Part shown: positions 2,488-39,290 of the stretch, one piece after another
Numbering within the stretch: position 1 is the stretch's first letter
Layout: each line of letters opens with the position of its first letter
Origin: Escherichia phage vB_Eco_F26
Reading direction: 5' to 3' (one strand)
Sequence record: OP870145.1
DNA: 64,000 bases
Notes under the pieces: model-generated
The model's database searches: none
The model's input: only the letters and a program-made list of their open reading frames with translations
Told to the model about the DNA's origin: nothing
Position numbers and translations under genes: made by a program

Positions 2488-3503
2488 TGTGTTGCCTCTA
2501 CATATAGCTGATTTGCATATTGAATAAGTGCTTCACGATCAGAATCAGTGATGTCTGGAATTGCATTAATGTATTCTTCCATCAACGTCTGAAGAGATTG
2601 AACTTCAACTTCTTCACTGTCATCTGACTCGACAGAGTTATCAATCTTTGACACAACTCGTAATGAATGCACAACTTTTTCTAGTTCAGATTCGAACTTC
2701 GTTAGATTTTTGTCTACTTCAGTTACTATAACACGTACTGATAGATTTGTAAAATCTTTATAGTCAATTTTTCCTTTAAATGGATAATGAATTCTACGAT
2801 GCCAGGTAGTGTTGTTTGGAATAAATTCCATTCGTTCTGTTTCTGTATCAAACATCCAGAACCCACGAGGGTCATTCTCGTCACCTGCAGTTAGTGTCCA
2901 TGGTGTCCCAATATATCTGACGTTAGCAGCCTCAGAGATAGTATGGAAGTGACCAGACCACACTTCTTTATAAGTCTTAAGGAAATCAGGTTCAAGACCG
3001 TGAGATTTCATTCCTTTATAAAAATAAAATCCGTTCAGTTCCCAGTGACCAACACAAAAAGAAGCAGATGAAGTTTTGATGTGTTCAAGAATTTCACCAG
3101 TATTTTCTTCACACATCCAAGGAATCAAATCAATCAAACACCCGTCAAAATCTACTGTAGTAGGCTTATCATATACTTTAACATTAGGATATTTAGCCAA
3201 AAGCTCAGTAGAGGCATTTGGATGCATTACATTTTTATAGTGGAGATCGTGATTTCCTACAATAGTGTGTAATGTAATTCCAGCATCATCAAGCGTTTGA
3301 ACTATTTCACGGGCAAACTCCATAGTTTTATGTGTGATCGCTTTTCTCACATCAAAAATATCACCATATTGAATCCAGGTAGTAATTCCATTTTTCTTAG
3401 AATATTCTATTGCTTGTTTAATTCCATCAATTTGAATACCGCGAATCCACTCATCATCAGCTTTAACGCCTAAATGCCAATCACCCAAGTTTAGTATTTT
3501 CAT
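2484..3503 (-). CDS. 47: Recombination endonuclease subunit gp47 (Mre11/SbcD-like nuclease)
   Basis: 339 aa, same length as T4 gp47; calcineurin-like phosphoesterase motifs (GDWHLG, GNHD); synteny with gene 46. Confidence 0.92.
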   Translation of the reverse strand: MKILNLGDWHLGVKADDEWIRGIQIDGIKQAIEYSKKNGITTWIQYGDIFDVRKAITHKTMEFAREIVQTLDDAGITLHTIVGNHDLHYKNVMHPNASTELLAKYPNVKVYDKPTTVDFDGCLIDLIPWMCEENTGEILEHIKTSSASFCVGHWELNGFYFYKGMKSHGLEPDFLKTYKEVWSGHFHTISEAANVRYIGTPWTLTAGDENDPRGFWMFDTETERMEFIPNNTTWHRRIHYPFKGKIDYKDFTNLSVRVIVTEVDKNLTKFESELEKVVHSLRVVSKIDNSVESDDSEEVEVQSLQTLMEEYINAIPDITDSDREALIQYANQLYVEATQ

Positions 3504-4104
3504 GGTGTCTTTTCCATCCTAATTTAGCTGCTTTTGAAACTAGTTCTTTAATTTTTCCTTTTGTCCATTCAGGACCAGGAGGTTCATGACATAACATTTG
3601 CTTAACTCCGTTATTATACCATTTTTTACCTTTATTATGTGATGAAGCTTTAAATTTATTTGACCTTCCTTTTACATAACCTTCTGGAATATAAGGCAAA
3701 AAGGCAGATTTTCCTGTTAATGGATCATGTGAATGTATATTTCCTTTACAATTATGAGAACCATATAATGGATGATTTTGTCCTTTGTTATCTCTTCCAA
3801 ATGAACCTTTTGGAGCAGCATATGACATATTAAAGAATAATGGATTTTTAACTGCATCATGCAATCGTTGATAATATAACTCGCATTTAATAGCTTCTTC
3901 ACGCGTATCAAATTCAGCTAAAATGCATGAATCAAATAAGTGAGGATTATCTGAAAGCTCTTTATTATAAATTTTCTTATACTTTTTAGATAAAACTGAA
4001 CCATGATATCCAGCTAAATGCCTATCTAAAGACGTAGATCCAATATAAAAAGGAGGAAGTTTATCTCCACTATATATTGTTAAATAAGTTATATATTTTT
4101 TCAT
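3481..4104 (-). CDS. GIY-YIG homing-endonuclease-like protein (Seg-like)
   Basis: 207 aa; N-terminal YITYLTIYSG...FYIGST GIY-YIG-like module; basic C-terminal half. Confidence 0.6.
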   Translation of the reverse strand: MKKYITYLTIYSGDKLPPFYIGSTSLDRHLAGYHGSVLSKKYKKIYNKELSDNPHLFDSCILAEFDTREEAIKCELYYQRLHDAVKNPLFFNMSYAAPKGSFGRDNKGQNHPLYGSHNCKGNIHSHDPLTGKSAFLPYIPEGYVKGRSNKFKASSHNKGKKWYNNGVKQMLCHEPPGPEWTKGKIKELVSKAAKLGWKRHHENTKLG

Positions 4105-22414: not shown

Positions 22415-22444
22415 ATAGTACCACAGAGGAACGGTCTTGTAAAC
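22415..22444 (-). promoter_or_regulatory. Early promoter (-35 GTTTAC / -10 TACTAT) within a conserved module tagttgatagttgtatagtaccac
   Basis: One of five copies of this module (also near 24551, 28123, 38181, 38531). Confidence 0.55.
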
Positions 22445-31649: not shown

Positions 31650-32111
31650 TCATTGAGTTTTAATTACTGCTTTAGAAGCCTTTCCTGGTAAACGACGACT
31701 GTTAATAATTGCCATCCTACATTGAAGTGACGGGTCTTTGAACTTCTCATTAGGTTTACAAACTGTAAATCCAAGCCAAAGATTTCCATCTGTGATTTCT
31801 AAACGTCCAGGACGATATTCAATTCCATCAATAAAATCCTCGTCAATGTCAGGACGCGGAGGCATACTCAGGAATTCATTAACTTCTAAAACATGGTCTT
31901 TTATTTTATGGAATAATTCAAAAACGTATGTCTCATCAATCTCCCGTTGAATTGCGCGATCAAGAAGATGTTGAGAATATTTTAGATGAAACGATGAGAC
32001 TCCTGCTGCTTTTGATGCCTCACGAATCTCATTGTTAATTTGACGAAACTCCGACTCAAAGTGACGACGAAGCTTATTTCGACGGATAAAAACTTCTGTA
32101 TTGATAGTCAT
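31650..32111 (-). CDS. regB: RegB site-specific endoribonuclease
   Basis: 153 aa; MTINTEVFIRRNKLRRHFESEFRQINNEIREASKAAGVSSFHLKYSQ... matches recalled T4 RegB. Confidence 0.93.
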   Translation of the reverse strand: MTINTEVFIRRNKLRRHFESEFRQINNEIREASKAAGVSSFHLKYSQHLLDRAIQREIDETYVFELFHKIKDHVLEVNEFLSMPPRPDIDEDFIDGIEYRPGRLEITDGNLWLGFTVCKPNEKFKDPSLQCRMAIINSRRLPGKASKAVIKTQ

Positions 32112-32127
32112 GTTGTTCTCCTCTTGA

Positions 32128-32157
32128 CTGATAGAAAAATTATACCACAGTCAAGAG
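32128..32157 (-). promoter_or_regulatory. Early promoter (-35 GTTTAC / -10 TATAAT) for regB
   Basis: Minus strand GTTTACttttcctcttgactgtggTATAAT about 17 nt upstream of the regB start. Confidence 0.6.
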
Positions 32158-32170
32158 GAAAAGTAAACAG

Positions 32171-33298: not shown

Positions 33299-33679
33299 TC
33301 AATTAAAAAATAAATTTATCCAAGATTGTTCTTTAATTAAAAATGGCTCAGAATCATATGCCATTAAACTCTGTGTGATTAGTCCTTTAAAAGGCCCATC
33401 AATAAATTCCATGGTAAAATATGGAATTTTATTCATTAGCCGTGCATTAGGAGCAGTACATAAAACTCTGCATCCTTTGAATACACCCTTTTGTAATTTG
33501 TATTGCTTGGGATAAAATTCGCTCAAAATGTTATTATTCGCTAAAATTTCAAAATGATTCACCAATTTATTTTTAATAGTTTTTGGTGAAAAATAGAGAT
33601 ATTCGAAAAGCTGTGCGTCTGTCATCATTGCATTCCGATTACGAAAAACTGTGGACGAGTAATACCACCAATGCAACAT
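33299..33679 (-). CDS. Hypothetical protein
   Basis: 126-aa ORF. Confidence 0.4.
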
Positions 33680-34164
33680 TTACTATTGCAACAGTACTGT
33701 ACAGTGTCAATATGAGCATCATAAATCTTATCCATATCAGGAGATTTGACAGGCTCGTCAATTATATACAAAATTCGCGAAAGCGATAAACCTCTGAACT
33801 TGCTTCCTTTATTACCAATAAAACTGCGCACAGAATCAGTAAATAAACGAAAACGTATATCATCATTAGAATAACGCGAAAATTCCTTTTTAATGTCATC
33901 TGCGGAATTTTTAGCATAAACTGAAGTATTAGAAAGAACAATAACTGTTCCGCCATCATACAACCAGTTAGCAGCGAAGTTAGTCACAGCAATTGATTTA
34001 CCGGATTGACGTCCACCATCTATACGAAGTGTGCAATACTGCTTAAGTAAGTCTTCAAATGGCGGGATATATTCGTTTTTACAAATTTCTTCTACTCTAG
34101 CATCAGAATGGTGTGTAAAAGCATTCATCAGGGATAGATAAGGACCAGTTAAAAATGTTCTCAT
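33625..34164 (-). CDS. P-loop NTPase-like hypothetical protein
   Basis: 179 aa; Walker A-like GGRQSGKS and Walker B-like ILYIIDE; occupies the position where T4 has denV. Confidence 0.45.
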   Translation of the reverse strand: MRTFLTGPYLSLMNAFTHHSDARVEEICKNEYIPPFEDLLKQYCTLRIDGGRQSGKSIAVTNFAANWLYDGGTVIVLSNTSVYAKNSADDIKKEFSRYSNDDIRFRLFTDSVRSFIGNKGSKFRGLSLSRILYIIDEPVKSPDMDKIYDAHIDTVQYCCNSKCCIGGITRPQFFVIGMQ

Positions 34165-34220
34165 TTAGTTTCTCTTTTAGGTTGGGCCATTCCTTGGCGC
34201 ATGAATTGTCCATTTCTGTA

Positions 34221-34275
34221 TTTACCCCTCCAAGTAATTATGAATATACTATCACAATTCTAGGAGAAAGTAAAC
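34221..34275. repeat. Promoter-containing direct repeat, copy A (flanks IP cassette)
   Basis: caagtaa-t-tgaatatactatcacaattctaggagaaagtaaac shared with 34611-34665. Confidence 0.7.
34246..34275 (-). promoter_or_regulatory. Early promoter (-35 GTTTAC / -10 TAGTAT)
   Basis: Part of a ~45-bp repeat also present at 34611-34665. Confidence 0.5.
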
Positions 34276-34277
34276 TG

Positions 34278-34580
34278 TTATTTACCTTTAATTACTTTAG
34301 CTGCTTCGATAGCCGCTTGCTGAAGGTCATCCATAGACATACCGAATTTAGAAGCAAAGTTATCAATTTTCTTTTCGACAGCATTCAAAGGCTTGGCCTG
34401 TTTACCTTCATTAGCGCCAGGAAGAGCGAGAATACGCTCTTTGTCAATATAAAGGCTTACAAGTTTCTTACGGTCTTTATCGGACAAATCATGAAATGAA
34501 TGGGCCTTTTTATTTATAGCGGCTTCTAATTTACCTGCACTCACTCGCGCTTCAGTAATAAATTCTTGATATGTTTTCAT
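34278..34580 (-). CDS. Internal-protein (IP)-like capsid-injected protein with capsid-targeting sequence
   Basis: 100 aa; N-terminus MKTYQEFITEA matches the T4 IP capsid-targeting consensus with an LxE-type protease site. Confidence 0.7.
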   Translation of the reverse strand: MKTYQEFITEARVSAGKLEAAINKKAHSFHDLSDKDRKKLVSLYIDKERILALPGANEGKQAKPLNAVEKKIDNFASKFGMSMDDLQQAAIEAAKVIKGK

Positions 34581-34610
34581 ATGTTTCCTTTAAATATTTT
34601 AATTAATAAT

Positions 34611-34665
34611 TTATCTATTCAAGTAACTGTGAATATACTATCACAATTCTAGGAGAAAGTAAACA
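34611..34665. repeat. Promoter-containing direct repeat, copy B
   Basis: Same ~45-bp element as 34221-34275; contains -35 GTTTAC. Confidence 0.7.
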
Positions 34666-34668
34666 ACT

Positions 34669-35199
<531 letters not shown>

Positions 35200-37873: not shown

Positions 37874-38137
37874 TTATTTCATATTATTGAAATATTCTTC
37901 TGCGATTTCATCGTTATCGTGGTAAACTTTAGAAGACAGTTTAACATAACCTTCAGCAGTGAACATATTAATCACAACTTTTACAGTATACCACTGACCG
38001 TCTTCATTACCCATTACTGCGTAAGTTTCAAACATCGGATGGTCAGGACCGATAACTTTAATATCATTCACTGTACGACCGAAATCTTCTGAAACGCATT
38101 TCATAAAGAAGTTGAACAGTTCGCCGTAATTATCCAT
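37874..38137 (-). CDS. Hypothetical small protein (start region duplicated in the adjacent tandem repeat)
   Basis: 87 aa from ATG at 38137 (MDNYGELFNFF...), GGAG 7 nt upstream; track ORF uses an upstream TTG. Confidence 0.5.
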   Translation of the reverse strand: MDNYGELFNFFMKCVSEDFGRTVNDIKVIGPDHPMFETYAVMGNEDGQWYTVKVVINMFTAEGYVKLSSKVYHDNDEIAEEYFNNMK

Positions 38138-38180
38138 TTCATTCTCCAAGTTGTTTTCTGTATCAGTAGTTGATAGTTGT

Positions 38181-38210
38181 ATAGTACCACGGAAGAACAG
38201 AGATGTAAAC
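38181..38210 (-). promoter_or_regulatory. Early promoter (-35 GTTTAC / -10 TACTAT), conserved module; copy 1
   Basis: Minus strand ttcacaaaactGTTTACatctctgttcttccgtggTACTAT. Confidence 0.55.
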
Positions 38211-38530
38211 AGTTTTGTGAAAAATTTTTTAAAAAGTTTTAGGGAATTCTAGGGAAGGGAGGGGCAATTAAAGGATAGGATAATATATTATAAAGGGTAG
38301 AAACTAAATGATGCCTAGAGAGGTCCAGAAAGGCCTAGATGCCAAAAAGCCCTATCATTTAGATAGGGATTTAAAATTATTTATCTAGTTTAGTTATTAT
38401 AGCTTCTACGGCAGCTTTTAGCTTAGATGCGGTGTTAATACGATTTTTAATTTCAGTATACGCGAACAGTTCGCCGTAATTATCCATTTCATTCTCCAAG
38501 TTGTTTTCTGTATCAGTAGTTGATAGTTGT

Positions 38531-38560
38531 ATAGTACCACGGAAGAACAGAGATGTAAAC
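38531..38560 (-). promoter_or_regulatory. Early promoter, duplicate copy 2 inside the tandem repeat
   Basis: Identical to 38181-38210 at +350. Confidence 0.5.
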
Positions 38561-38726
38561 AGTTTTGTGAAAAATTTTTTAAAAAGTTTTAGGGAATTCT
38601 AGGGAAGGGAGGGGCAATTAAAGGATAGGATAATATATTATAAAGGGTAGAAACTAAATGATGCCTAGAGAGGTCCAGAAAGGCCTAGATGCCAAAAAGC
38701 CCTATCATTTAGATAGGGATTTAAAA

Positions 38727-39290
38727 TTATTTATCTAGTTTAGTTATTATAGCTTCTACGGCAGCTTTTAGCTTAGATGCGGTGTTAATACGATTTTTAA
38801 TTTCAGTATACGCATCGCCAAGAACATCAAGGCTATCAGAATAAACACTTACACTATTGCGTTCGCTATTTGAAATAGAACCTTTAGTTTTACGATCAAA
38901 ATCGGTGTACACGTCTTGAAGATCACGCGCTGCCTTCTTTGCATCATCCAATGCATCAAGAGCTTTATTCAAAGCATTAACGTATTTTTTAGTGTCGAAC
39001 ATATTCTTAGAAATTTTAGCAGGTGCACGTTCAGGAGTAGCTAATACAGATTTAGGAACCTGAGCGCCAGATGCCAATTTCTTAGAAATTTTGAAAAACG
39101 CTTTATTGAATTTATTTTCTTGACTCATCGTAAAAGAACTATTATCGATGTTGTACATTTCAATAGCTTTAGCTTTCCACTTAAGAAAATCGCCGCGGTC
39201 TTTTGGGTCCAAGTGGAAAAATACTTTAGTAAGATCTGCTTCAGATGGTAATTTTGCTGCTTCGGTTAAAAATTCGGCATAGGTTTTCAT
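38727..39290 (-). CDS. Internal-protein (IP)-like capsid-injected protein
   Basis: 187 aa; N-terminus MKTYAEFLTEA matches the IP capsid-targeting consensus. Confidence 0.65.
   Translation of the reverse strand: MKTYAEFLTEAAKLPSEADLTKVFFHLDPKDRGDFLKWKAKAIEMYNIDNSSFTMSQENKFNKAFFKISKKLASGAQVPKSVLATPERAPAKISKNMFDTKKYVNALNKALDALDDAKKAARDLQDVYTDFDRKTKGSISNSERNSVSVYSDSLDVLGDAYTEIKNRINTASKLKAAVEAIITKLDK

What the first reader, a model, noticed from the sequence alone, without database searches (positions are those of the whole stretch)
34221..34665. IP-like gene bracketed by ~45-bp promoter-containing direct repeats (cassette architecture)
The IP-like gene 34278-34580 (capsid-targeting N-terminus MKTYQEFITEA) is flanked by near-identical elements at 34221-34275 and 34611-34665, each holding an early -35/-10. 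This is the arrangement expected if internal-protein genes are swapped by recombination between repeated regulatory modules. IP proteins are injected with the DNA and at least one (T4 IPI) is an anti-restriction factor, so divergent IPs are candidate novel anti-defence effectors.
Basis: partly seen in the sequence, partly recalled or inferred. Interest (0 to 1): 0.6.

Follow-up and report, generated by a model that had tools for sequence, protein, structure and literature searches.

The report
T4 ipII gene between repeated promoters
This is the well-known internal-protein gene ipII of a T4-like phage, sitting between two copies of an early promoter/hairpin module in a gene-shuffling hot spot that has been described since 1986–2014, so the finding is real but ordinary.

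Summary
A 100-codon ORF with the capsid-targeting leader MKTYQEFITE (34278-34580, minus strand) is flanked by a 56-nt direct repeat, 89% identical with a 34-nt perfect core, at 34220-34275 and 34609-34664. Each copy carries a T4-type early promoter.

The gene is not a divergent IP. It is the ortholog of T4 IPII (93/100 residues identical).

The window is the e–vs.8 "hyperplastic" internal-protein locus of a Tequatrovirus. T4 has e-ipIII-ipII-denV-vs.8 there. This phage has only e-ipII-vs.8, as do phages Manna and JEP6.

The repeats are the T-even "PeSL-like" promoter-plus-stem-loop modules. The stem-loops are annotated in the 1986 T4 record, and the modules were proposed as recombination sites by Repoila 1994, Arbiol 2010 and Comeau 2014.

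My comparison of about 30 relatives supports that model. The interval holds 0-5 IP genes from about 10 families, with denV in variable positions. fPS-65 and Killian differ by exactly one repeat-to-repeat unit containing ipII.

Other junctions use different homology. The absence of ipIII maps to the shared RBS/leader-peptide sequence, and the absence of denV maps to a 7-nt microhomology. In several relatives ipII lacks the upstream repeat.

Novelty: already known. Interest: low.

The parts
34278..34580 (-). ipII: internal head protein II precursor, 100 aa; predicted mature form 90 aa, pI 9.7, 9.8 kDa
   Evidence: ORF. 93/100 residues identical to T4 IPII. PHROG 7857 'internal virion protein', E 4.5e-55, full length.
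34551..34580 (-). Capsid-targeting sequence (CTS) coding segment, MKTYQEFITE, removed by cleavage before Ala11
   Evidence: The T4 record X04567 annotates residues -10 to -1 of IpII as a leader and 1-90 as the mature protein. The first 33 nt are 83% identical on average among 11 IP genes of about 10 families, against 30% for the next 66 nt.
34609..34668 (-). Upstream promoter/stem-loop module (e-proximal). -35 GTTTAC at 34659-34664; -10 TAGTAT at 34635-34640; 8-bp inverted repeat AATTGTGA/TCACAGTT at 34641-34648 and 34625-34632, spanning the -10
   Evidence: RNA fold -10.7 kcal/mol, z -1.4. Homologous along its length to the T4 e>ipIII spacer.
34581..34608 (-). IP-type leader and ribosome-binding site (…AAAATATTTAAAGGAAACAT-ATG)
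   Evidence: Nearly identical to the T4 ipIII leader. The last 12 nt, TAAAGGAAACAT/C, are shared by 6 of 11 IP genes compared.
34220..34277 (-). Downstream promoter/stem-loop module (denV type). -35 GTTTAC at 34270-34275; -10 TAGTAT at 34246-34251; long hairpin in which CUCC just after the -35 pairs with GGAG at 34228-34231
   Evidence: RNA fold -20.3 kcal/mol, z -4.25, 0 of 200 shuffles fold as well. The same module precedes denV in Killian, L006 and fPS-65. It is annotated as an early promoter plus terminator in OL960576.
34165..34227 (-). 3' third of the conserved vs.8 leader, joined to the denV-type module at a GGG(A)TAAA microhomology. It contains the start of a 36-codon ORF (34103-34213), out of frame with vs.8
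   Evidence: Alignment A1 and spacers. The junction is present in about 100 phage records at 98-99.5% identity.
34669..35163 (-). Gene e (lysozyme), left border of the variable interval
   Evidence: 96% aa identity to T4 e. Pfam Phage_lysozyme.
33625..34164 (-). vs.8 (179 aa, P-loop-like, function unknown), right border of the variable interval
   Evidence: 95% aa identity to T4 vs.8 residues 41-219. PHROG 1488.

Best explanation
The window shows the e–vs.8 internal-protein locus of a T4-like phage (Tequatrovirus) in its smallest IP-containing form: e, ipII, vs.8.

What the repeats are. They are two copies of the T-even composite regulatory module, made of three parts:
- an A/T-rich stretch after the upstream stop codon;
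- an early promoter, GTTTAC-N14-GTGA-TAGTAT;
- an inverted repeat straddling the -10.

The upstream copy is the e-proximal module. It carries the generic IP leader and RBS, and here it drives ipII. The downstream copy is the module that drives denV in relatives. Here denV and two thirds of the vs.8 leader are missing, so this module now sits directly in front of vs.8.

How it works (inferred).
- Each module starts an early transcript for the gene behind it.
- Its hairpin forms only in transcripts that read in from upstream, because the 5' arm lies upstream of the module's own start site.
- In the denV-type copy the hairpin pairs the Shine-Dalgarno GGAG with CUCC. Read-through RNA would therefore be translationally masked or attenuated.
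- In the IP-type copy the hairpin is short and leaves the RBS, 40 nt downstream, free. ipII can thus also be translated from late transcripts coming from gene e.

Recombination (shown by comparison of genomes). The modules are 50-60 nt of near-identical DNA in direct orientation. T4's recombination system can cross over between them and so excise or insert the 389-nt ipII + module unit. The same locus also rearranges through the conserved RBS + CTS-coding sequence and through short microhomologies.

The protein (from T4 knowledge). IPII is packaged through its 10-residue leader, trimmed by the prohead protease and injected with the DNA. Its target is unknown.
For: Identity of the locus and genes.

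Repeat and promoter anatomy.

Hairpins:
- Upstream copy -10.7 kcal/mol, z -1.4. Downstream copy -20.3 kcal/mol, z -4.25.
- 13 of 13 denV-type modules from other lineages fold at -16 to -21 kcal/mol (z -3.6 to -6.2) with the SD paired. They use at least five different stem sequences.
- The T4 record X04567 already annotates inverted repeats A/A', B/B' and C/C' after e, ipIII and ipII. These overlap the -10, and for C' the denV RBS.

The same e-proximal module precedes different genes: ipIII in T4, ipII here and in Manna and Killian, Ip4 in RB32 and e11/2, a 105-aa IP in L007, and denV in fPS-65 and L006.

Variation of the interval: 342-2376 nt, holding 0-5 CTS ORFs of about 10 families, with denV in different positions.

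Recombination between the repeats:
- The fPS-65 e>denV module is chimeric. It has the e-side flank and core, then the denV-side GGAGGGATAAA.
- The Killian and fPS-65 intervals differ by 431-59 = 372 nt, exactly the repeat spacing in Killian.

Other junctions:
- The window's e>ipII spacer matches T4 e>ipIII, not T4 ipIII>ipII. The switch falls in the 46 nt (RBS + CTS codons) that ipIII and ipII share in T4.
- The denV-less junction is GGAG|GGGTAAATA.

Laboratory precedent: ipIII was lost in three evolved T4 populations, and deletions of 0.7-6 kb were flanked by short homologies.

Published model.
Against: - No transcription, termination or translation data exist for this phage. Promoter activity and start sites are inferred from consensus.
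- Neither hairpin is followed by a U-run, and the terminator scan found nothing there. A terminator role is therefore unsupported here.
- My attempt to generalise SD masking to the other early promoters of the window was inconclusive. Shuffled controls paired the SD about as often.
- The predicted product of recombination between the window's own two copies (e-P-vs.8 with no IP) was not among the 60 best database rows.
- In several relatives ipII lacks an upstream copy. The repeats are therefore not needed for ipII to move or persist.
- The direction of each event (insertion or deletion) cannot be told from the comparisons.
Confidence: 0.85

Rival explanations
1. The two elements are simply two independent early promoters. 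They look alike because T4 early promoters are strongly constrained, and they share no ancestry and have no role in recombination.
For: T4-type early promoters in the window share long consensus stretches such as GTGGTACTATACAACTATCAAC. Every early gene needs a promoter.
Against: The 34 of 34 identity includes spacer positions that differ in the other promoters. Identity of 0.83 over 60 nt compares with a mean of 0.42 and sd of 0.12. Chimeric modules and an exact one-unit indel between fPS-65 and Killian show that the copies do recombine.
Confidence: 0.04
2. The repeats are purely regulatory insulators: a promoter plus a hairpin that gives each small gene its own expression unit. The recombination seen between them is an occasional by-product of any 50-nt homology in T4, and the elements are not a cassette-mobility device.
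For: Two of the three differences from T4 and relatives at this locus use other homologies, namely RBS/CTS and a 7-nt microhomology. ipII occurs without an upstream copy in SA79RD, L014 and L024. T4 deletes and amplifies through 6-10 bp microhomologies.
Against: This cannot be separated from the main explanation with sequence alone, because both accept the same anatomy. The modules are concentrated at variable junctions, and mini-circles formed between PeSLs have been demonstrated in RB49 and phi1.
Confidence: 0.1
3. The inverted repeat TGTGA-N8-TCACA over the -10 is an operator for a DNA-binding protein (host CRP-like or phage-encoded) that represses or times these promoters.
For: The half-sites TGTGA/TCACA are the CRP half-site motif (from memory). 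The palindrome is present in both copies and in T4.
Against: The spacing is 8 nt, not the canonical 6 (from memory). In other lineages the arms are replaced by unrelated sequences that keep pairing rather than sequence, which points to a hairpin and not a protein site. One arm is degraded in Killian e>ipII.
Confidence: 0.02

Closest known systems
T4 e–ipIII–ipII–denV–vs.8 region (GenBank X04567, 58.3-65.5 kb early region; NC_000866 65.4-67.0 kb)
   Same: Same genes e, ipII and vs.8 at 93-96% aa identity. Same position of an early promoter directly after each stop codon. Same inverted repeats straddling the -10 (annotated A/A', B/B', C/C'). Same 10-residue leader on ipII.
   Different: The window lacks ipIII and denV. 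Its ipII uses the leader that belongs to ipIII in T4. Its two flanking modules are 89% identical, whereas those flanking ipII in T4 share little beyond the -35 region (no direct repeat between them; sequences).
PeSLs (promoter-early stem-loops) of T4-like phages (Arbiol 2010, PMC2839356; Comeau 2014, PMC4122927)
   Same: Composite intergenic element: A/T-rich region, sigma-70-type early promoter, stem-loop, then SD and start codon. It lies in hyperplastic regions next to indels, and direct repeats of it flank small non-essential genes. The PST/T4 consensus TTTACW-N17-TAYWAT is matched 11 of 12 (TTTACT-N17-TAGTAT).
   Different: The stems are A/T-rich and weak, not the GGGG/CCCC stems of RB49 and phi1. 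Arbiol et al. call the T-even IP-locus elements analogs, not homologs, of PeSLs. Promoter, terminator and mini-circle activities were shown for RB49 and phi1, not for this element.
Hyperplastic IP loci of T-even phages (Repoila et al. 1994, EMBO J 13:4181; known to me only through and from memory)
   Same: Variable number, order and identity of IP genes. The genes are bipartite, with a conserved CTS and an unrelated body. PeSL-like sequences are associated with the locus.
   Different: Nothing substantive. This window is one more allele of that locus (a single ipII).
Promoter-inside-hairpin translational control of T4 genes e, soc, 49 and I-TevI (reviewed in PMC3014915)
   Same: The 5' arm of a hairpin lies upstream of a local promoter's start site and the 3' arm covers the SD. 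Only locally initiated transcripts are therefore translatable. The downstream (denV-type) copy has this geometry.
   Different: Those cases use late promoters and have experimental support. Here the promoter is early and the effect is inferred. In the window the masked SD no longer precedes denV; it precedes a 36-codon ORF.
Integron cassettes and lambdoid 'morons'
   Same: Small accessory genes are added or removed as units that bring, or land behind, their own expression signals.
   Different: There is no integrase or attC site. Exchange is by general homologous or microhomology recombination between regulatory repeats.

Membership tests
T4 internal proteins (IPI/IPII/IPIII family of CTS-bearing, injected head proteins) | N-terminal ~10-residue capsid-targeting sequence (MKTYQEFIxE) ending in the prohead-protease motif (L/I)-x-E | tested here: met
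   MKTYQEFITE|A. The T4 record annotates the same 10 residues of IpII as the removed leader. The protease motif itself is from memory.
T4 internal proteins (IPI/IPII/IPIII family of CTS-bearing, injected head proteins) | Sequence homology of the body to a named IP | tested here: met
   93 of 100 residues identical to T4 IPII. PHROG 7857, E 4.5e-55, covering 1-100 of 100.
T4 internal proteins (IPI/IPII/IPIII family of CTS-bearing, injected head proteins) | Location in one of the two IP loci (here between e and vs.8/denV) | tested here: met
   Gene order nudE-e-ipII-vs.8-vs.7-vs.6, as in T4 apart from the missing ipIII and denV.
T4 internal proteins (IPI/IPII/IPIII family of CTS-bearing, injected head proteins) | Protein present in the virion in processed form and injected with the DNA | not testable with these tools
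   Needs virion proteomics or N-terminal sequencing.
PeSL / PeSL-like regulatory cassette | Early sigma-70-type promoter with the T-even consensus TTTACW-N17-TAYWAT | tested here: met
   Both copies read TTTACT-N17-TAGTAT, 11 of 12 (G where Y is expected in the -10). They also fit GTTTAC(N14)gtggTAttaT.
PeSL / PeSL-like regulatory cassette | A/T-rich tract upstream of the -35, starting at the upstream stop codon | tested here: met
   By eye from the sequences, the 20 nt upstream of the GTTTAC are about 80% A+T in both copies (GTATAAAAATCTATAAAGTT and GTAATTAAAGGTAAATAACA). The stop codon lies 2-5 nt before GTTTAC.
PeSL / PeSL-like regulatory cassette | Stable stem-loop within the element | tested here: inconclusive
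   Downstream copy -20.3 kcal/mol, z -4.25: clearly met. Upstream copy has only an 8-bp A/T-rich stem, -10.7 kcal/mol, z -1.4, and 18 of 200 shuffles fold as well.
PeSL / PeSL-like regulatory cassette | SD and start codon of the downstream gene at the 3' end | tested here: met
   Upstream copy: AAAGGAAACAT-ATG of ipII. Downstream copy: GGAGG followed by an ATG 12 nt later (the 36-codon ORF), with vs.8 starting 49 nt further on.
PeSL / PeSL-like regulatory cassette | Sits at insertion/deletion/replacement junctions between close relatives | tested here: met
   One-unit indel between fPS-65 and Killian (372 nt).
PeSL / PeSL-like regulatory cassette | Demonstrated promoter and terminator activity, and mini-circle formation | not testable with these tools
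   Shown only for RB49 and phi1 elements. No U-run terminator signature here.
PeSL / PeSL-like regulatory cassette | Homology to the RB49/phi1 PeSLs (G-rich/C-rich stems, near-perfect TTGACA/TATAAT) | tested here: not met
   The stems are A/T-rich and the -35 is GTTTAC. Arbiol et al. themselves class the T-even IP-locus elements as analogs. I therefore file this as 'PeSL-like (T-even type)', in the sense of Comeau 2014.

The most novel reading that the evidence does not exclude
The most novel reading still open has two parts.

(1) IPII of this lineage could be an injected inhibitor of a host defence system that has not yet been identified, as IPIII appears to be on E. coli ECOR17.

(2) The few substitutions that distinguish the two otherwise identical modules could form a deliberate switch. 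The IP-type copy leaves the RBS open, so the gene is expressed both early and from late read-through. The denV-type copy masks the SD, so the gene is expressed only from its own early promoter. Module exchange would then re-time a gene as well as move it.
Probability: 0.2. Interest if true: 0.4.

Novelty: already known. Interest (0 to 1): 0.1.

Why it matters
The locus is a textbook example of how T4-like phages reshuffle small injected proteins that can disarm host defences. IPI blocks GmrSD, and IPIII is needed on ECOR17.

This allele adds nothing new in kind. The gene, the repeats, the hairpins and the shuffling model are all on record, and the same arrangement is in GenBank (phages Manna and JEP6).

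Its practical value is as a clean natural series for anyone who wants to measure repeat-mediated cassette excision, or to test what IPII does:
- e-P-denV
- e-P-ipII-P-denV
- e-P-ipII-P-vs.8

Tried and rejected
- **Generic sigma-70/terminator scan.** It did not flag the two promoters, because the T4 -35 is GTTTAC. It found no terminator at either hairpin. I replaced it with a T4-type pattern scan.
- **Search for the predicted 'empty site'.** I joined the window's two copies in silico into e-P-vs.8 and searched the phage collection. None of the 60 best rows is colinear. The common one-cassette states are e-denV-vs.8 and e-Ip4-vs.8.
- **SD masking as a general rule.** I tested whether masking by pre-start-site nucleotides holds for the window's early promoters. 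The control, shuffling the upstream part, paired the SD about as often, so the test is inconclusive and I make no general claim.
- **Conserved ~140-nt vs.8 leader.** Rfam gave no hit at E<=1 on T4 and L014. RNAalifold gave 24 pairs, only one with a compensatory change, and a covariation term of -0.07. A structure is neither supported nor excluded.
- **IPII function.** There is no PDB relative (best E 0.86). There is only a weak PADLOC PbeC match (E 0.0018), which I dismiss as low-complexity or coiled-coil noise. Pfam gives only a sub-threshold DUF7412 match.
- **CRP-like operator reading of TGTGA-N8-TCACA.** Rejected, because other lineages keep the pairing and not the sequence.
- **Papers not held.** Repoila 1994 (PMC395341) and Miller 2003 (PMC150520) are not in the library. 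I cite them only through other papers or from memory.
- **Statement in NAR 2026** that IPII and IPIII inhibit GmrSD variants. The primary data I could read show no effect of deleting IPII and IPIII on Eco94GmrSD restriction (21-fold against 15-fold for wild type). I treat IPII's function as unknown, as Srikant 2022 also states.

Full report
**1. Observation**

The repeat finder reports a single strong direct-repeat family around the ORF: 34220-34275 and 34609-34664, 56 nt, 89% identical, 389 nt apart. The 34-nt core occurs exactly twice in the window even when three mismatches are allowed, and never in 100 shuffles. The ORF 34278-34580 is on the minus strand and encodes 100 residues beginning MKTYQEFITEA. 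The repeat is longer than the stated ~45 bp.

**2. What the region is**

The 1.6 kb around the ORF matches 765 phage records, almost all of them T4-like coliphages and their relatives.

Gene order on the minus strand is nudE, e (lysozyme), the ORF, vs.8, vs.7, vs.6 (GrcA-like). Identities to T4 proteins are 94-98%.

The ORF is ipII. It is 93/100 residues identical to T4 IPII and identical to the ipII of phage Killian. It matches PHROG 7857 'internal virion protein' at E 4.5e-55. It is therefore not a divergent IP.

T4 has e-ipIII-ipII-denV-vs.8. The window has no ipIII or denV anywhere in its 64 kb.

The complete colinear arrangement e-repeat-ipII-repeat-vs.8 is found in only two database records, Salmonella phage Manna and Escherichia phage JEP6. 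CJY920 comes close.

**3. Anatomy of the repeats**

Read on the coding (minus) strand, each copy starts 2-5 nt after the stop codon of the preceding gene and reads GTTTAC-N14-GTGA-TAGTAT. This fits two published consensus forms:
- the T4 early-promoter consensus quoted in a public annotation, GTTTAC(N14)gtggTAttaT;
- the PST/T4 PeSL consensus TTTACW-N17-TAYWAT, matched 11 of 12.

Twenty of the 22 sites of this type in the window lie on the minus strand. Their mean pairwise identity over 60 nt is 0.42 (sd 0.12), whereas this pair scores 0.83. The likeness therefore exceeds what promoter function would impose.

An inverted repeat (AATTGTGA … TCACAGTT or TCATAATT) straddles the -10 in both copies.

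The six differences between the copies cluster at the 3' end. The upstream copy continues …TTACTTGAATAGATAAAT into the generic IP leader and RBS (AAAGGAAACAT-ATG). The downstream copy reads …TTACTTGGAGGGGTAAAT.

As RNA the two copies fold differently:
- The upstream copy forms only the 8-bp stem (-10.7 kcal/mol, z -1.4).
- The downstream copy forms a long hairpin (-20.3 kcal/mol, z -4.25). In it, CUCC just after the -35 pairs with the Shine-Dalgarno GGAG.

**4. Comparative survey**

I fetched 25 IMG/VR loci through the lysozyme and 11 annotated GenBank regions.

In the loci that hold both e and vs.8, the interval between them ranges from 342 to 2376 nt. It contains 0-5 ORFs with the MKTYxEF leader, from about ten unrelated families: ipII, ipIII, Ip4 (157 aa), and families of 105, 93, 86, 109, 99, 132 and 115 aa. 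denV appears before, between or after them, or is absent. This is the hyperplastic IP locus.

The e-proximal module is nearly constant, and different genes follow it:

| Gene after the e-proximal module | Phage or locus |
|---|---|
| ipIII | T4 |
| ipII | window, Manna, Killian |
| Ip4 | RB32, e11/2 |
| 105-aa IP | L007 |
| denV | fPS-65, L006 |

**5. How the alleles differ: three kinds of junction**

(a) *Repeat × repeat.*
- Killian has e-P-ipII-P-denV and fPS-65 has e-P-denV, with the same denV allele.
- The single fPS-65 module is chimeric. It has the e-side flank and core up to TTACTTG, then the denV-side GGAGGGATAAA.
- The two intervals differ by 431-59 = 372 nt, which is exactly the repeat spacing in Killian.

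(b) *RBS/CTS homology.*
- The window's e>ipII spacer matches T4's e>ipIII spacer along its whole length, not T4's ipIII>ipII spacer.
- The switch to ipII sequence falls in the 46 nt (TTTAAAGGAAACAT + the first 32 nt of the ORF) that ipIII and ipII share in T4.
- Across 11 IP genes, the first 33 coding nt are 83% identical on average and the next 66 nt only 30%.
- T4's 74-nt repeat at this place has a spacing of 697 nt.
[quoted passage not shown] That these are the same event is my inference.

(c) *Microhomology.*
- In relatives the downstream module ends GGAGGGATAAA-ATG(denV).
- A conserved ~140-nt leader upstream of vs.8 contains …GGTAATGGGTAAATACAG….
- The window reads GGAG|GGGTAAATACAG, so denV and two thirds of that leader are missing at a GGG(A)TAAA overlap.
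- This ipII-P-vs.8 junction occurs at 98-99.5% identity in about 100 records. One is SA79RD, classified as Mosigvirus, where denV sits elsewhere in the array and ipII has no promoter module upstream.

The near-identical bracketing is therefore a lineage-specific configuration and not a fixed property of an 'ipII cassette'. The weaker form, a shuffling locus with repeated regulatory modules, stands.

**6. Mechanism**

*Shown by sequence comparison.* The modules recombine with each other, and the locus also rearranges through RBS/CTS homology and microhomology.

*Inferred.*
- Each module initiates an early transcript.
- Its hairpin can form only in RNA arriving from upstream, because the 5' arm precedes the module's own start site.
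- In all 13 denV-type modules from other lineages that I folded, and in the window's downstream copy, the SD is paired (-16 to -21 kcal/mol, z -3.6 to -6.2). At least five different stem sequences are used, for example UCUCCUGUAG/CUACAGGAGA, UUCCUCCAAG/CUUGGAGGAA and CUCCUGUG/CACAGGAG. Selection is thus for pairing.
- This is the geometry established for T4 genes e, soc, 49 and I-TevI with late promoters.
- The IP-type copy leaves the RBS free. That would let ipII, a head component, also be translated from late transcripts that start upstream of gene e.

*Weaknesses.* A terminator role is not supported here: there is no U-run, and the scan found nothing. My attempt to generalise SD masking to all early promoters of the window was inconclusive.

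*From T4 knowledge.* IPII is targeted to the prohead by its leader, trimmed to 90 residues (pI 9.7) and injected. Its target is unknown. Deleting ipII and ipIII does not change restriction by Eco94GmrSD.

**7. What is already known**

- The 1986 T4 record X04567 annotates inverted repeats A, B and C after e, ipIII and ipII as putative stem-loops/terminators. They overlap the -10 boxes, and C' overlaps the denV RBS.
- Arbiol et al. 2010 defined PeSLs, showed promoter and terminator activity and mini-circles for RB49 and phi1, and stated that Repoila et al. 1994 had seen PeSL-like sequences at the two IP loci of T-even phages. They called those elements analogs, based on T4 early promoters and with weaker A/T-rich stems.
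- Comeau et al. 2014 extended PeSLs to the T4/PST pair and gave the consensus used above.
- Public annotations already mark the window's downstream element as an early promoter plus terminator and the fPS-65 element as an early promoter.

**8. Verdict**

The gene is ordinary ipII and the arrangement exists in GenBank. Novelty: already known. Interest: 0.1.

The most novel reading still open is twofold: that IPII has an undiscovered anti-defence target, and that the two module variants act as an expression-timing switch exchanged along with the genes. I give it a probability of about 0.2 and moderate interest if true.

**9. Seen in passing**

- The window carries an exact 350-bp tandem duplication (38114-38463 = 38464-38813). 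It is absent from a relative that is 99.9% identical there.
- A 33-nt core in the vs.8 leader is nearly invariant across distant phages and is unexplained.
- Further details are in the list of items noticed in passing.

Noticed in passing
window 38114-38813: Exact tandem duplication of a 350-bp unit (38114-38463 = 38464-38813, 100% identical), with no microhomology at the junction. It spans the 3' end of a second CTS-bearing IP-like gene (38727-39290, minus strand, 187 aa, MKTYAEFLTEAAKLPS…), an early promoter, and the 5' end of a 91-aa ORF (37874-38149). It creates a chimeric 40-codon ORF (38377-38499). All of the 25 best-matching relatives listed, including vB_EcoM_G50 at 99.9% identity, have a single copy (span 1121 nt against 1471 nt). 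It may be a very recent segmental duplication, an assembly artefact or an artificial insertion; the round length is suspicious.
   Followed up: partly
T4 locus L001 2066-2211 (minus strand) and homologous stretches in L006-L024; window 34165-34227 keeps only the 3' third: The ~140 nt upstream of the vs.8 start contain a 33-nt core (ACCTGTAATAAGGTCGAGCCCAAGTGCGGTAA.GGG) and a second block (GTGCCA.GGAATGGCCC). Both are almost invariant at the nucleotide level, even in phages whose vs.8 protein is only 33-41% identical to T4's. The reading frame relative to vs.8 is not conserved (48 nt in Manna against 49 nt in the window from the upstream ATG), so the T4 annotation of a 219-aa vs.8 is doubtful. 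There is no Rfam match, and too little variation to test a structure. It may be a cis-regulatory RNA, a protein-binding site or a recombination site.
   Followed up: partly
window 34103-34213 (minus strand): A 36-codon ORF starts 12 nt after the orphaned denV-type SD and overlaps the vs.8 start out of frame. In Manna a one-base length difference (48 nt against 49 nt from the upstream ATG to the vs.8 start) puts the same ATG in frame, and vs.8 is annotated there as 195 aa. The true vs.8 start is probably MRTFLTGPY (179 aa).
   Followed up: partly
window, whole 64 kb: No denV (pyrimidine-dimer glycosylase) and no ipIII are detectable by tblastn. If denV is absent from the rest of the genome too, this phage should be more UV-sensitive than T4. 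It also lacks the IP that T4 needs to grow on E. coli ECOR17.
   Followed up: partly
window 32110-32170 (minus strand), also near 22444 and 27340: Other early promoters carry strong hairpins over the -10. An example is 32116-32162, with a 15-nt arm, -25.3 kcal/mol and z -6.2, whose 3' arm includes the SD AGAGGAG. A window-wide test of SD masking against shuffles was not discriminating.
   Followed up: partly
L033 (Escherichia phage FL12, PP400786) 3159-3525: ipII is frameshifted in this phage. The CTS and the first ~22 codons are in one frame and the rest in another, and only the 3' part is annotated as a 69-aa protein. This is an ipII pseudogene or a sequencing error.
   Followed up: no
window 34513-34520 (minus strand), inside ipII: The T4 late-promoter motif TATAAATA lies inside the ipII coding sequence (codons for A-I-N-K). 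It is annotated as a late promoter in OL960576. If active, it would give late transcripts of vs.8 and not of ipII.
   Followed up: no
L012-L024, vs.8 leader: In the more distant phages the vs.8 leader contains GGGTTTACAT… (a GTTTAC -35-like motif), where T4 and the window have GGGTAAATAC. A dedicated vs.8 early promoter may therefore exist there and be absent in the T4 group.
   Followed up: no
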